A stretch of DNA of 18,423 nt from Candidatus Bipolaricaulia bacterium (GCA_046758705.1 JBHIAT010000063.1:1-18423); one strand, 5' to 3'; positions 661 to 14,064 are shown, counted from the first letter of the stretch. Made by a program: numbers and translations. The notes: generated from the sequence alone by a model not told the origin.

Positions 661-1638
661 TCAAGCTTTCGCTTTGAGCCATTTGTCATTGGATGCCTCG
701 TAGCTTGTTGCGGGAGTTTTCACTCGATGGACCAGCAACCCAATGCCTGATAACGTTAACGACAGCGTCACAATTTGGGTCAGGTTGTAAAATGGGGAAG
801 CGCTTCCCACCATCCACACCGCCAGAGACGAAGCCGTGGTGGTCCCGAGAACAGTGGCGATCAACGGATAGATGGCTGGAGCACAACAGCAACAGAAGTT
901 GGTTCCCAAGGCCACAAAAGCGACACCTCCCAACGTGGCGCTCCCTCGGTAGCACGAAATCCGCTGGGCCAGCGAAACCGCCAGCAAGGCCAGGCTCATC
1001 CCGATCAGCGGCGCCAGGGTGAACACCACCATGGCCGTCCCCACAGAGATAGCTCCGAAAAGGGAGAGTTCCGGGATCCAAAACTCTATATCAGGCCAGA
1101 TGGCCAGCGGACCGTAGGCCTGGAAGGGGATCACGAACGCGGCCGTGCCCGGGGCCGGCATCTCGTCCGGTTCCGGTGGGGCGACCAGGTTGGTGCTCCA
1201 CAGGTAGAACCCGGCGTACAGGACCGCTGCAGTCAGGGCGAGCGCCAGGTAACGCCGTTGACCCAACACCGTCTTTATCGTGCTGCCGAAGTTGATCAGA
1301 ACGAAGCCCCAGACCGATAAGAGAGACAAGGGCAGCACCACGTACCCCATGGTCAAGAGCCAGCGGTCACCAGGCAGTAGATTTTGCAGGTACCCTAGAA
1401 AGAGCCAAATCAGCAGCACTCTTGCGACTATTCCACTGCCAGGTGGGAAGGGATTCCGGCTGCCGCGAGCCCACTGCAGTAGCGATAGGATGGACACGCC
1501 CAGCATGAAAGCCAAGGACACCGCCACCCCAACGAGTGACACCCAGTCTGCGGGGCCAGACCAGCGCTCAAGGGCATGTTCGATGGGATCACCATGGGCA
1601 AGAGCCGCTGACGGTGGTGAGGTCAGACTCAAGCCCAC
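661..1638 (-). CDS. Multi-pass membrane protein with CCCC motif, putative metal-binding
   Basis: 325-aa ORF with about 7-8 hydrophobic segments, TNFCCCCAP near the C-terminus and a signal-peptide-like ALA-HG. True start uncertain. Confidence 0.75.
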   Translation of the reverse strand: MGLSLTSPPSAALAHGDPIEHALERWSGPADWVSLVGVAVSLAFMLGVSILSLLQWARGSRNPFPPGSGIVARVLLIWLFLGYLQNLLPGDRWLLTMGYVVLPLSLLSVWGFVLINFGSTIKTVLGQRRYLALALTAAVLYAGFYLWSTNLVAPPEPDEMPAPGTAAFVIPFQAYGPLAIWPDIEFWIPELSLFGAISVGTAMVVFTLAPLIGMSLALLAVSLAQRISCYRGSATLGGVAFVALGTNFCCCCAPAIYPLIATVLGTTTASSLAVWMVGSASPFYNLTQIVTLSLTLSGIGLLVHRVKTPATSYEASNDKWLKAKA

Positions 1639-2113
1639 CGTCAGCGACGCACACGTTAGCCCGCGTCTGTATTTTAGTGAACACCTTTTTAAAATCGGAT
1701 GAAACCTCCGTAGAACAGGTTATACCAGATCAGGTAGACTCCGGCCCCGATGATGACAAACGCGCTGACCATCTGGACGTAGCGGATCAAAGGCCGGATG
1801 TAGCGGTAGATCGCCTCCCGCGAGAAGGCCATCACCACCGACAACGCGACCATCATCAACGTCATGCCCAAGCCGTACGAGGCAAAGCCCAACAGACCGT
1901 TGAACAGCCCCTGCGTGAAACTTTGGGTAACCACTACCATGAAGATCGGCAGGGTGCAGCTGGTCGAGGCGACGGCATAGCTGATTCCATAAAGGTAATA
2001 GAATGGCAGACGATCGTGCTGCCGAGGGTGTGGGTTGGGATTGCCTGCTCCGAGACCCAAGAATTCGAGAGCATGCTCCAGTTGCGGCAGGGAGAAGAAC
2101 TTGGCCTTATTAT

Positions 2114-2431
2114 CGGTCAATACACCGGACTTCAGTCCGCGTGGACTTTCTCCTCTTTCCATGGTATAATGATCACAGATCTTTGACAACGTATGGGGTT
2201 GTTGCCGCAACCCTGAGCAACGTAAAACGTTGTGGGTATAGCCAGGTGCATTTTGCCAGCGTTTTGCTGTTCAGCGAAACAGAAGCTAACAGCCGCGAAG
2301 CCTGGCCTAAAGAAACTAAAACGTTGTGTGTGAACTGGCCGGGCGCGGCCAGCGTGGAGGCGTGAACCGCTGCGAGAGCAAGTTCCGCCTGTGAAACGAG
2401 AAGCCCCGTACTTTAGTGCGGGGAGCGTCAC
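2114..2431 (+). mobile_element. Non-autonomous IS200/IS605-family mini-element (PATE-like), no protein gene
   Basis: Left subterminal hairpin CACCGGACT-TC-AGTCCGCGTG (2123-2143), preceded by AATA and target TTAT (2110-2113). Right end GAAG-CCCCGTACT-TT-AGTGCGGGG-AGCG-TCAC (2400-2431), the same architecture as the right end of the tnpB element at 14012-14044. It interrupts ccdA in frame. The left boundary is uncertain by a few nt (2111/2114/2117). Confidence 0.85.
2142..2170 (+). promoter_or_regulatory. Sigma70-type promoter inside the mini-element
   Basis: TGGACT (2142-2147), 17 nt, TATAAT (2165-2170), with extended -10 TGn. Confidence 0.75.
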
Positions 2432-2451
2432 TCAAAATCATCAATACGCCG
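2177..2451 (+). ncRNA. Putative stand-alone TnpB-type omegaRNA with an extra 5' domain; guide from flank 2432-~2451
   Basis: Follows the promoter and has no credible ORF. Stems: GGGTTG/CAACCC, GCAACGT/ACGTTGT, GCCAGG/CCTGGC, CTGGCC/GGCCAG, AGGCG-GAAC/GTTC-CGCCT and the terminal hairpin. Loop GGCGC can pair with GCGTC next to the terminal TCAC (pseudoknot). Confidence 0.6.
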
Positions 2452-2745
2452 AGGATCACCAACCCGACCCCGATCACAGACGCGACCCAGGGGATGTAGC
2501 GGGCGATGATGCTTCCCAGGGCGGATACGATCAACCCCAACCCCACGAAGATGGTGAAGAATCCGGAACTGACGGTTCCACCCAGCCTCAGACCTTTAAC
2601 GAGACTGGTGAACCAGTTGCGATCTGCGCCTCCCTCCCGTCCGATATAGTGGGAGACGTACGAGGGCAACATGGCAAATCCACAGGGGTTGAAGAACGCC
2701 GCCATCCCGGCGACGAACGCGAACGAAAGCAGACCCAAATCCATC

Positions 2746-12773: not shown

Positions 12774-12857
12774 GGCTCACCTCCTGATTGCGCTCACGCT
12801 ACAGAAAAACACGGCAGAGGGCACCCGGATTCATCCGGGGGGTGAATGCCGCCGCTC

Positions 12858-12886
12858 TTGACAAACCTTCCCTAATCATGTATATC
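12858..12886 (+). promoter_or_regulatory. tnpB promoter (probably leaderless transcript)
   Basis: TTGACA (12858-12863), 17 nt, TATATC (12881-12886). GTG at 12893 lies at the expected +1 and has no RBS. Confidence 0.55.
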
Positions 12887-12892
12887 AGAGAT

Positions 12893-14011
12893 GTGAAAAC
12901 TTTTGAGTATCGCCTGTACCCAACCAAGAGCCAGCGTGCCTTGCTGATGGCCTGCCTCAAAGAATCCAGGAAGCTATACAACGAGATGCTGGCAATGACC
13001 AAAGTGCAGTACCGCCAGACGGGTCGCTTCCTGTTCAAATATGCACTGACCAAGGCATTTAAGGGGCGTGGACAAGCTGTGCCTGCCACAACCGTCCAAT
13101 GTCTCGCTGATCGGCTTGATAAAGCACTGCACAATTTCTTGGCTCGCAAAGAGTTAGGCCAGCCAGCAGGATTCCCACGTTTCAAACCGCCGAACCGCTG
13201 GCACTCCATCCATCTCAGACAGTGGGGCAAATATCGAGATGTCTTCTTTGACGGCAAGTATCTGAAGGTCCCTAAGAAACTGGGAGGTAAACTCAAAATC
13301 AAACTGCACCGCCCGTTTGAGGGTACCCCAAAGACCTGCCATCTTGTCCTACGCGCTGACGGCCATTGGTATGCCCTCATTCCCTGTGAGATTCCAACAC
13401 CCCCCCCAGATCCCTCTAAGCCAGAGATCGGGTTGGACATGGGGCTAAAACACTTTTTGGCCGATTCAAACGGCAACACCGTGACCGCCCCCCAATGCTT
13501 TCGCAAAAGCCAAGCCAAGCTCCGAGTCAAACAACGAACGATAAGCCGGAGACCAAAGGGCAGCAACCGCCGTCGCAAAGCGGCTAAAGAGACCGCTCAC
13601 GTGCATCTGAAGATTGCGCGGCAGCGGCGGGACTGGCTGTTTAAGGTGGCCAAGCCCTATGCTGAAGATTACAGCCGCATATTCGTCGAGGACTTGAACG
13701 TGAGCGGAATGCTCAAAAACCATCATCTGGCCAAGAGCATCTCTGACGCATCGTGGAGCATGTTCCTTGAGATCCTGGCTGCCAAGGCTGGGAGTGCTGG
13801 GCATGAGGTGATCAAGGTTCCTGCACGCTTCACGACACAGAAATGCTCGGCTTGCGGTACGCTGGTTCCCAAGTCTTTGAGCGTTCGCACGCATATTTGT
13901 CCTTTCTGCGGCTTCATCGCTGACCGCGATCATAACGCCGCGCTGAACATATTAACCGCTGGGGCGCAGCGGTCAGGCGCTAACGTCGAAGAAGAGTTCG
14001 GCGTTGCCTGA
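12893..14011 (+). CDS. tnpB: RNA-guided endonuclease TnpB
   Basis: KTFEYRLYPT N-terminus, GFPRFK, RuvC-I GLDMG, RuvC-II VEDLNV, Zn ribbon CSAC..CPFC and RuvC-III DRDHNAA. The D-E-D triad is intact. Start could alternatively be ATG 12878. Confidence 0.95.
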   Translation: MKTFEYRLYPTKSQRALLMACLKESRKLYNEMLAMTKVQYRQTGRFLFKYALTKAFKGRGQAVPATTVQCLADRLDKALHNFLARKELGQPAGFPRFKPPNRWHSIHLRQWGKYRDVFFDGKYLKVPKKLGGKLKIKLHRPFEGTPKTCHLVLRADGHWYALIPCEIPTPPPDPSKPEIGLDMGLKHFLADSNGNTVTAPQCFRKSQAKLRVKQRTISRRPKGSNRRRKAAKETAHVHLKIARQRRDWLFKVAKPYAEDYSRIFVEDLNVSGMLKNHHLAKSISDASWSMFLEILAAKAGSAGHEVIKVPARFTTQKCSACGTLVPKSLSVRTHICPFCGFIADRDHNAALNILTAGAQRSGANVEEEFGVA

Positions 14012-14064
14012 GAAGCACCCCGTTTCAACGGGGTGAGTCGTCACTCTATACAACAGCTCATCTT
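13930..14064 (+). ncRNA. TnpB omegaRNA (reRNA) overlapping the tnpB 3' end; guide = flank 14045-~14064
   Basis: Stems ACCGCTG/CAGCGGT, CAGGC..AACGTCGAA/TTCGGCGTT..GCCTG and the terminal hairpin. The location is as established for TnpB systems. The 5' end is approximate. Confidence 0.7.

What the first reader, a model, noticed from the sequence alone, without database searches (positions are those of the whole stretch)
2114..2451. Protein-free IS605-type mini-transposon that appears built to express a stand-alone guide RNA
Seen: a ~318-bp insert splits ccdA in frame. It has IS200/IS605 hairpin ends and no ORF, but a near-consensus promoter (TGGACT-17-TATAAT, extended -10) faces ~250 nt of densely base-paired sequence. 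The last ~100 nt mirror the omegaRNA end of the tnpB element in this window: a GGGCGC-loop hairpin, a long stem, GAGAAG, the terminal hairpin, then GTCAC, with the loop complementary to the 3' end. Established: TnpB omegaRNAs run through the right end and take their guide from the flank; non-autonomous IS605 derivatives (PATEs) and orphan omegaRNAs for IscB are known. Inference: this is more than a deletion scar; it may be an RNA-only element that borrows TnpA for mobility and TnpB for targeting. Its guide TCAAAATCATCAATACGCCG plus TTAT would match the empty ccdA allele. By the IS608 guide/cleavage pairing rule, AATA predicts TTxT (TTAT) and GAAG predicts TCxC (TCAC), both as observed.
Basis: partly seen in the sequence, partly recalled or inferred. 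Interest (0 to 1): 0.85.

Follow-up and report, generated by a model that had tools for sequence, protein, structure and literature searches.

The report
Gene-less transposon carrying a guide RNA
This is a small, multi-copy jumping element without any protein gene that carries its own promoter and a TnpB-type guide RNA, a kind of element already described, but here the RNA begins with a conserved folded domain that has not been described.

Summary
The insert is 321 bp (2111-2431), not 318, and lies 3' of TTAT (2107-2110) in a weakly CcdA/DsbD-like membrane gene. It is a live repeat: the genome holds 6 identical full copies plus about 9 contig-end pieces, and at least five diverged protein-free subfamilies.

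All subfamilies keep a promoter (here TGGACT-17-TATAAT) and a roughly 255-nt RNA. The last ~100 nt align with the 3' ends of resident tnpB elements. They keep a loop-to-tail pseudoknot that covaries, so this part is a TnpB omegaRNA core.

The middle is not a tnpB coding remnant, and no ORF is conserved. But it is a known kind: stand-alone omegaRNAs and omegaRNA-bearing PATEs are in print, and this scan has met them at least 8 times.

What looks new is the first ~63 nt of the RNA (2178-2240). It is a compact stem-hairpin(-pseudoknot) domain with strong covariation. It has no Rfam match, occurs only in protein-free elements, and is shared with elements in Actinomycetota MAGs and others that carry different transposon ends.

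Expression and TnpB use are untested, because no RNA data were available.

The parts
2107..2110 (+). Target / transposon-adjacent motif TTAT. It belongs to the host, not to the element.
   Evidence: TTAT precedes the element in 10 of 10 left flanks. The insertion point is fixed by paralogue C77 and by the X3 joint.
2111..2431 (+). Protein-free IS200/IS605 mini-element (PATE-like), 321 bp, subfamily A.
   Evidence: 6 identical full copies and 9 partials in the genome. It is a precise insertion with no target duplication. There is no conserved ORF.
2119..2143 (+). Left end: guide tetranucleotide AATA (2119-2122), then the imperfect palindrome CAC-CGGAC-TTCA-GTCCG-C-GTG (2123-2143).
   Evidence: Read from the sequence. 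The layout follows IS608 (PMC3201880 passages). The first 30-33 nt are shared with another element at the end of contig C115.
2142..2170 (+). Sigma-70-type promoter: TGGACT, 17 nt, TATAAT, with TG upstream. The start is predicted near 2177.
   Evidence: 10 of 12 matches. An equivalent CTTGACT-17-TATAAT/C sits at the same place in subfamilies B-E.
2178..2240 (+). Conserved 5' RNA domain. Stem P1 is ACAACGU/ACGUUGU. It encloses hairpin S2 (GUUGC/GCAAC) and a probable pseudoknot S1 (GGGUU/AACCC). GUAAAA is invariant.
   Evidence: Covariance model R1 scores 88.6 bits here. In 34 sequences, P1 has compensatory changes in 6 of 7 pairs and S2 in 5 of 5, and S1 is conserved. No Rfam match.
2241..2332 (+). 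Middle helices that, with the 5' end, close a first RNA domain. 5' AUCUUUG pairs with UAAAGA near 2308-2313.
   Evidence: RNAalifold on 6 subfamily members gave 78 pairs, 16 of them with compensatory changes.
2335..2431 (+). OmegaRNA core. It comprises the hairpin 2335-2352 with loop GGGCGC, a long stem, GAGAAG (guide GAAG at 2400-2403), the right-end palindrome 2404-2423, and the tail AGCGTCAC. The tail holds the pseudoknot partner GCGTC (2425-2429) and the cleavage motif TCAC (2428-2431).
   Evidence: It aligns with the 3' ends of the tnpB elements on C274, C185, C27 and in the window. The pseudoknot is 92.7% paired, with 3 of 5 pairs compensatory across 11 sequences. There is a weak HgcC (RF00062) match of 14.1 bits, under its cut-off of 50.
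2432..2451 (+). Predicted guide: flank transcribed past the right end.
   Evidence: This is inference from omegaRNA architecture. No terminator-like site lies in 1900-2700. TTAT plus this flank equals the uninterrupted site. No RNA data were available.
2432..2744 (-). N-terminal half of the interrupted membrane gene (CcdA/DsbD_TM-like, weak).
   Evidence: Pfam DsbD_TM E=1.4e-4, under the cut-off. Translation.
1689..2110 (-). C-terminal half of the same gene.
   Evidence: It is collinear with the intact 251-aa paralogue L251:304-1059:-. The only family hit is a weak ArsG-family match, E=0.0028.
12799..14044 (+). Resident tnpB element (IS1341-like, no tnpA). Its right end and omegaRNA core resemble the mini-element. 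tnpB probably starts at GTG 12893. The left boundary is approximate.
   Evidence: Pfam OrfB_IS605, TNB and HTH domains. The left-end similarity to C18 begins at 12799. The right end was read.

Best explanation
The insert is a non-autonomous IS200/IS605 element (PATE type) whose only cargo is a stand-alone TnpB guide RNA gene.

How it most likely works
- A Y1 transposase made elsewhere recognises the two subterminal hairpins. It cuts after TTAT on the left and after TCAC on the right, and pastes the single strand 3' of another TTAT (inferred from the IS608 mechanism).
- The element's own promoter starts an RNA near 2177.
- The RNA folds into a conserved 5' domain and a ~100-nt omegaRNA core, then runs through the right end into the flank.
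- A TnpB made by a tnpB element elsewhere in the genome binds the core. It uses the flank as a guide and cuts the site TTAT+flank whenever the element has been excised. Repair from a sister copy then restores the element (inferred from published TnpB biology).
- The C185/C274 type, also flanked by TTAT, has the closest core and is the most likely partner.
- The 5' domain most likely stabilises or helps load the free-standing RNA. Its real role is unknown.

Shown here: anatomy, copy number, precise insertion, homology of the core, and covariation. Inferred: transcription, TnpB binding, and cleavage.
For: Mobility and ends
- The genome holds 6 identical copies plus 9 partials. Depth is about 20-fold over the flanks.
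- TTAT is present in 10 of 10 left flanks.
- The 321-bp insertion is precise against paralogue C77.
- The promoter is a 10 of 12 match with TG. It is kept at the same place in five diverged subfamilies.

The omegaRNA core
- The core aligns with four resident tnpB 3' ends.
- The loop-to-tail pseudoknot has 3 of 5 pairs compensatory and is 92.7% paired, against 30-50% when the partner is slid.
- Subfamily D's core is nearly the same as that of tnpB C274. The C152 mini matches the tnpA-tnpB element on C27 in its left end and core.
- The C185 tnpB has all three Pfam domains and is flanked by TTAT.

Not a scar, and not new in kind
- No tnpB coding remnant was found in the minis; the best tblastn E was 0.025, on the wrong strand.
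- Stand-alone omegaRNAs acting in trans are published (PMC10691335 passages; PMC10055086 passages).
Against: - No RNA run holds the stretch, so neither a transcript nor its 3' end is shown.
- None of the 6 Y1 transposase hits in the genome has the subfamily-A left end.
- The only other element sharing that left end breaks off at a contig end.
- Subfamily A's core is only 79-83% identical to the nearest tnpB ends, so compatibility is not assured.
- One genome with four related minis (G050, 85% complete) shows no TnpB or TnpA at all.
- In G151 and G152, the minis' 3' part has no nucleotide match on any contig with a TnpB TNB-domain hit, apart from the mini itself on G151:C104.
- The 5' domain, which is better conserved than the core, has no explanation in the standard omegaRNA model.
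Confidence: 0.7

Rival explanations
1. The 5' domain is the real payload. On this view the RNA has a function of its own that does not need TnpB, such as a ligand- or protein-binding domain, a decoy, or a regulator. The omegaRNA-like end survives mainly because it overlaps the sequences the transposase needs.
For: - The 5' domain is the most conserved part across subfamilies and phyla, with 17 invariant bases and strong covariation.
- It is never found in a tnpB element. Across G000, G151 and G152, only 2 of the module hits share a contig with a TNB hit (G000:C63 and G151:C104), and both are separate elements.
- R1 gave no hit in the 4 tnpB loci searched.
- G050 has four such elements and no detectable TnpB or TnpA.
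- Alternative pairings of the segment GUUGUGG are all kept: 93.8% and 98.8% paired. This would fit a switch.
Against: - The loop-tail pseudoknot lies ~90 nt from the end, outside anything IS608-type transposases are known to need. It still covaries in the minis in step with their tnpB counterparts.
- G050 is incomplete.
- No Rfam riboswitch or ribozyme matches.
Confidence: 0.15
2. The element is an inert, decaying deletion derivative of a tnpB element. Its promoter and RNA-like folds are leftovers without function.
For: The promoter sits where tnpB promoters sit, next to the left end. One family member (C80) has an internal deletion that removes the promoter and the 5' half. A copy of the 5' domain on C144 lies outside any recognisable element.
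Against: - There are six identical copies and about 20-fold depth.
- There is no tnpB coding similarity.
- Compensatory changes occur in 16 of 78 predicted pairs among only 6 sequences, and in P1, S2 and the pseudoknot.
- The same RNA body is joined to at least five different left ends.
Confidence: 0.05
3. The element acts mainly as a mobile outward-facing promoter or antisense RNA that changes expression of whatever lies beyond its right end. In this window it would be antisense to the 5' half of the interrupted gene.
For: There is a strong promoter and no terminator before the flank. The RNA strand is opposite to the interrupted gene.
Against: A promoter alone would not need ~255 nt of conserved, covarying structure. 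Of the 6 full copies, only the window's spans a stop-free frame as long as a gene; the other five span frames of 45-154 aa, so the copies show no common neighbour.
Confidence: 0.1

Closest known systems
Stand-alone omegaRNAs of OMEGA systems (Altae-Tran et al. 2021, as summarised in PMC10691335) and omegaRNA-encoding PATE-like elements of Geobacillus stearothermophilus (Meers et al. 2023, PMC10055086)
   Same: A protein-free element bounded by IS200/IS605 ends, present in a genome that also has TnpB-encoding elements, carrying an omegaRNA that would need TnpB and TnpA in trans.
   Different: Here the RNA has its own near-consensus promoter. It also has a conserved ~63-nt 5' domain plus ~90 nt of further helices that are absent from the resident tnpB elements. 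The same RNA body is joined to several unrelated left ends. I saw only passages of both papers. Their figures and supplements, which may show comparable 5' extensions, were not available.
IS608 (Helicobacter pylori) and the IS200/IS605 peel-and-paste family
   Same: Subterminal imperfect palindromes, a tetranucleotide target on the left that is not part of the element, a cleavage tetranucleotide inside the right end, a guide tetranucleotide 5' of each hairpin foot, and no target duplication (PMC3201880 passages).
   Different: The target is TTAT, not TTAC, and the right motif is TCAC, not TCAA. The spacings are 12 and 8 nt instead of 19 and 10. There is no tnpA or tnpB.
PATEs of Haloquadratum walsbyi (Dyall-Smith et al. 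2011, PMC3119063; seen only in a search listing)
   Same: Short, multi-copy, gene-less IS200/IS605 derivatives with palindromic ends.
   Different: Those were described before guide RNAs were known. I did not read the paper, so I cannot say whether they carry a promoter or a 5' domain.
IStrons (IS605/IS607 elements with a 5' group I intron and a 3' omegaRNA; bioRxiv 10.1101/2023.11.20.567912, passages)
   Same: One transposon RNA that combines a structured 5' RNA domain with a 3' omegaRNA.
   Different: There is no group I intron signature here (no Rfam match). The 5' domain is far smaller. The element has its own promoter, and in this window it lies antisense to the interrupted gene, so it cannot splice out of that mRNA.

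Membership tests
IS200/IS605 non-autonomous element (PATE) | Subterminal imperfect palindromes at both ends, with a guide tetranucleotide 5' of each foot | tested here: met
   Left: AATA + CACCGGAC-TTCA-GTCCGCGTG (2119-2143). Right: GAAG + CCCCGTAC-TTTA-GTGCGGGG (2400-2423). Read. Architecture from PMC3201880 passages.
IS200/IS605 non-autonomous element (PATE) | Insertion 3' of a fixed tetranucleotide, with no target duplication | tested here: met
   TTAT in 10 of 10 left flanks. The 321-bp insertion is precise against the intact paralogue C77 and a joining contig.
IS200/IS605 non-autonomous element (PATE) | No protein-coding gene | tested here: met
   No significant tblastn match of three TnpB proteins to six minis. 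Stop-free frames shift or break between subfamilies.
IS200/IS605 non-autonomous element (PATE) | Several copies at different sites (mobility) | tested here: met
   6 identical full copies on 6 contigs plus 9 contig-end partials.
IS200/IS605 non-autonomous element (PATE) | A matching Y1 transposase in the same genome | tested here: inconclusive
   The genome has 6 Y1_Tnp hits, but none is preceded by the subfamily-A left end. An element sharing that end is cut off at the end of C115.
TnpB omegaRNA (stand-alone) | Scaffold homologous to the RNA encoded at the 3' end / right end of tnpB elements | tested here: met
   The last ~100 nt align with the tnpB ends of C274, C185, C27 and the window. Identity to C274/C185 is 79-83%.
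TnpB omegaRNA (stand-alone) | Pseudoknot between an upstream hairpin loop and the bases just before the guide | tested here: met
   92.7% of cells are paired, and 3 of 5 pairs have changes on both sides across 11 sequences. Slid controls give 30-50%. That such a pseudoknot defines TnpB omegaRNAs is recalled from the ISDra2 structures, not read here.
TnpB omegaRNA (stand-alone) | Transcript runs through the right end and takes its guide from the flank | not testable with these tools
   No RNA holder is listed. The only indirect point is that no terminator-like site was found in 1900-2700.
TnpB omegaRNA (stand-alone) | Bound and used by a TnpB nuclease | not testable with these tools
   Candidate partner: TnpB on C185, with three Pfam domains, flanked by TTAT. 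No binding or cleavage test was possible.
Rfam IS605-orfB-I/II, HEARO, HgcC | Score at or above the family's gathering threshold | tested here: not met
   0 matches at gathering thresholds in the whole window. In 2080-2480 at E<=10 the only match is HgcC at 14.1 bits, against a cut-off of 50.
IStron | Group I intron core in the 5' part of the element | tested here: not met
   No Rfam match of any intron family at E<=10 in 2080-2480.

The most novel reading that the evidence does not exclude
The 63-nt 5' domain marks an independent, horizontally spreading lineage of RNA-only transposons. These are not repeated deletion products. The lineage keeps its own RNA body and swaps left ends and omegaRNA cores to exploit whichever TnpA/TnpB pair is resident, making it a parasite of a parasite. 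On this reading the 5' domain is a new functional RNA class. It might be a protective or loading module that lets a free-standing guide outcompete the nuclease's own guide, or a sensing domain.
Probability: 0.3. Interest if true: 0.7.

Novelty: new variant of a known kind. Interest (0 to 1): 0.45.

Why it matters
Stand-alone guide RNAs show that the parts of the TnpA/TnpB/omegaRNA system are modular, and that RNA alone can ride on it.

This family adds two points. First, the same RNA body is found on at least five different left ends in one genome, and on IS608-like ends in other phyla. This suggests an RNA-only lineage with its own history, rather than occasional deletion scars. Second, it carries a compact, strongly covarying 5' domain that the nuclease-encoding elements lack.

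If that domain raises the stability or loading of a trans-acting guide, it would be of practical interest for TnpB-based editing. It would also be an example of competition between guides for one nuclease. If it does something else, it is a new bacterial RNA motif.

Tried and rejected
Expression and read data
- No RNA holder is listed for 1900-2650, so expression could not be examined.
- The runs laid were contigs only. The one contig that joins 2110 to 2432 may be the C77-type paralogue passing the 90% likeness, so I do not count it as proof of an empty allele in the population.

Searches for more family members
- A scan of metagenome contigs with a 26-position degenerate pattern of the 5' domain gave 0 hits. 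The same pattern on viral contigs also gave 0.
I screened all loci held from L041 on with a motif filter. None of the loci from that metagenome scan was a true family member.
- A 17-mer scan of genome contigs gave 34 stretches, about what chance predicts. By upstream context, 10 are true: 4 in an Actinomycetota MAG, 3 in a Bipolaricaulota MAG, 2 in Ca. Hakubella and 1 in an uncultured bacterium.

Readings rejected
- A protein on the minus strand: frames are not conserved.
- tnpB coding remnants in the middle: nothing significant.
- IStron or ribozyme: no Rfam match.
- 'TTGACA' inside the 5' domain as a second promoter: the -10 is poor in this genome, and the region covaries as RNA.
- Off-target guide matches: 16-nt matches with up to 2 mismatches occur at about the chance rate. 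The only notable one is the C77 paralogue, preceded by TTGT.

Partner searches that led nowhere
- The subfamily-A left end continues into other sequence at the end of C115, but the rest is not in the assembly.
- The ends of the Actinomycetota minis could not be matched to a resident IS605. One locus is partly withheld as N and ends at a contig end.

Literature
- Searches for a described 5' domain on stand-alone omegaRNAs found none.
- Supplements and figures were not available.

Full report
**What is there.** Window 2111-2431 is a 321-bp insert in a minus-strand membrane gene.

Three results move it to 2111:
- A second, uninterrupted copy of the gene on contig C77 (81-83% identical) aligns to the window up to 2108 and again from 2432, with nothing between. 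Its 251-aa product reads ..VLMILNKAKFF.. across the site. That is exactly what the window gives if 321 bases are removed, not 318.
- One contig of run X3 joins 2110 to 2432.
- All 10 left flanks in the genome read TTAT. 9 of them are followed by TAT and one by TGC, so those three bases belong to the element.

The X3 contig may itself be the C77-type copy, because I laid at 90% likeness. I use it for the boundary only, not as proof of an empty allele. The gene label 'ccdA' is weak. DsbD_TM scores E=1.4e-4 for the N half and 0.0084 for the whole paralogue, both under Pfam's cut-off.

**It is a live repeat family.** The assembly (319 contigs, 3.7 Mb) holds 6 full copies at 100% identity and 9 pieces at contig ends. 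In the three runs that hold the locus, unitig depth inside the element is ~150-175 against ~7-9 in the flanks. The 3' flank begins with T in 10 of 11 copies, so the preferred site is TTAT^T.

Beside this subfamily A there are diverged, equally protein-free relatives:
- C120 and C45 (B), C106 (C), C244 (D), C159 (E) and a remoter one on C152.
- An internally deleted copy on C80, and a stray 5' domain on C144.

These relatives share 75-89% identity over the RNA region, but their left ends are unrelated.

**Ends.** Both ends have the IS608 layout: a guide tetranucleotide, an imperfect palindrome, and a cleavage tetranucleotide (PMC3201880 passages).
- Left: TTAT | TATCGGTC AATA CAC-CGGAC-TTCA-GTCCG-C-GTG.
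- Right: GAAG CCCCGTAC-TTTA-GTGCGGGG AGCG TCAC |.

It also fits the relatives found elsewhere (GAAT/TCAA, CAAG/TGAC). I did not read the rule itself in a paper.

**Promoter and RNA.** TGGACT-17-TATAAT with an upstream TG is a 10 of 12 match. No terminator-like site lies between it and 2700. Subfamilies B-E keep a CTTGACT-17-TATAAT/C promoter at the same place. From ~2177 to 2431 is about 255 nt. The fold is better than shuffles (z -2.9). RNAalifold on six subfamily members gives 78 pairs, 16 of them with compensatory changes.

**The 3' part is an omegaRNA core.** The last ~100 nt run as follows: hairpin 2335-2352 with loop GGGCGC, a long stem, GAGAAG, the right-end hairpin, and the tail. This stretch aligns with the sequence just after the stop codon of the tnpB genes on C274, C185, C27 and in the window.

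The loop pairs with the tail just before the cleavage motif, and this pairing covaries. It reads GGCGC/GCGTC in A-C, GGCAC/GTGTC in D and in tnpB C274/C185, GACG/CGTC in E and G007, and GAAC/GTTC in C152 and C27. Across 11 sequences, 92.7% of cells pair and 3 of 5 pairs change on both sides. Slid controls give 30-50%.

Minis and tnpB elements come in matched sets:
- D shares its core with C274.
- C152 shares its left end and core with the tnpA-tnpB element on C27.
- B and C share a left-end type with C185.

The C185 TnpB has the HTH, OrfB_IS605 and TNB domains, and its element is flanked by TTAT. This is the best candidate partner for subfamily A, whose core is 79-83% identical to C274/C185.

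**The middle is not a tnpB remnant, and no protein is encoded.**
- tblastn of three TnpB proteins against six minis gave nothing significant. The only collinear matches are the last ~10 residues, which overlap the core.
- Long stop-free frames exist on the minus strand, but a 1-nt indel shifts them between A and B, and D has stops.

**The 5' domain.** The first ~63 nt of the RNA (2178-2240) are the best conserved part. The stretch GTAAAACGTTGTGGGTA is invariant in the 16 sequences first aligned.

A covariance model built from 15 sequences (R1) found:
- 13 matches in this genome;
- 4, 1 and 1 in three other genomes of the 151 sampled from the same phylum;
- 11, 18 and 1 in three genomes reached through the 17-mer scan;
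- a second model (R2) found it in only 1 of 151 genomes sampled from the phylum of G151.

On 34 sequences aligned to the model:
- stem P1 (ACAACGU/ACGUUGU) has changes on both sides in 6 of 7 pairs;
- hairpin S2 (GUUGC/GCAAC) has them in 5 of 5;
- a third pairing, S1 (GGGUU/AACCC), would make an H-type pseudoknot. It is conserved but does not covary;
- overall 93.6% of cells pair, against 35-50% when the partner is slid.

That alignment was fitted to the model, which favours the structure. The independent MAFFT alignment of 16 sequences already showed 3 of 5 S2 pairs and one P1 pair compensated. Two alternative pairings of the segment GUUGUGG are also always possible, so a conformational switch cannot be excluded.

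Rfam has no match.

The domain was never found inside a tnpB element:
- R1 had no hit in four tnpB loci.
- Across G000, G151 and G152, only two module hits share a contig with a TNB domain hit, and both are separate elements.

In the other genomes the domain again sits behind a promoter in short, gene-less elements with IS608-like ends, namely TTAC...TCAA and ...TGAC.

**What this means.** It is, however, a known kind. Stand-alone omegaRNAs that are mobilised and work in trans are reported (PMC10691335 passages). Meers et al. state that PATEs 'often encode omegaRNAs' that need TnpB in trans (PMC10055086 passages). This scan has filed at least eight such elements in other genomes.

The new element is the conserved 5' domain. 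The pattern of one RNA body joined to many different ends also looks more like a separate RNA-only lineage than like repeated deletions.

**Weak points.**
- No expression data were available.
- No transposase with the matching left end was found.
- The element that shares the A-type left end is cut off at a contig end.
- G050 has four minis but no detectable TnpB or TnpA, at 85% completeness.
- In G151 and G152 the minis' 3' part has no nucleotide match near any tnpB.
- The role of the 5' domain is a guess.
- Figures and supplements of the key papers could not be seen and may already show comparable 5' extensions.

Noticed in passing
G000:C77 (L251:304-1059:-): An intact second copy of the interrupted membrane gene (251 aa, 81-83% nucleotide identity). 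The site reads TTGT instead of TTAT. It is either a paralogue or a co-binned relative, and it may explain why the insertion is tolerated.
   Followed up: yes
window 12799-14044: A single-copy tnpB element without tnpA. Its left-end similarity to a solo left-end remnant on C18:6872-6956 (85%) begins at CTAC/CTAT, so its target motif is not obviously TTAT.
   Followed up: partly
end of G000:C115 (11877-11923); window 2114-2143: The subfamily-A left end (30 of 30 bases, preceded by TTAT TGC) continues into unrelated sequence that looks like a -10 box, a ribosome site and an ATG. This may be the protein-coding parent or partner of subfamily A. The same loose end appears in all four runs laid (X1-X4), and the left-end bin has about 2.5 times the depth of the element's interior.
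   Followed up: partly
G000:C144:4469-4531 (L013:1488-1550): A copy of the 5' domain (56.8 bits) lies between two small ORFs, with no recognisable transposon ends or promoter. It is either a decayed element or the domain in another context.
   Followed up: partly
G050 loci L033, L035, L037, L038: Four gene-less elements carry the same 5' domain, a different body and ends (...CGTTGAC). The genome shows no TnpB or Y1 transposase (85% complete). L035 carries a compensatory change in stem P1.
   Followed up: partly
window 2184-2189 and equivalents in L041, L056: The conserved start of the RNA contains TTGACA. In the Actinomycetota elements it is followed at 17 nt by CACAAT, a promoter-like arrangement inside the transcribed domain.
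   Followed up: no
window 1536-2186 and 2391-2765, + strand: Removing the element would give a 310-aa stop-free frame on the strand opposite to the membrane gene. This is probably a shadow frame of a GC-rich gene.
   Followed up: no
G000:C80:9204-9349: A subfamily-B element with an internal deletion keeps the left-end hairpin and the last ~105 nt (the omegaRNA core). It has lost the promoter and the 5' domain.
   Followed up: partly
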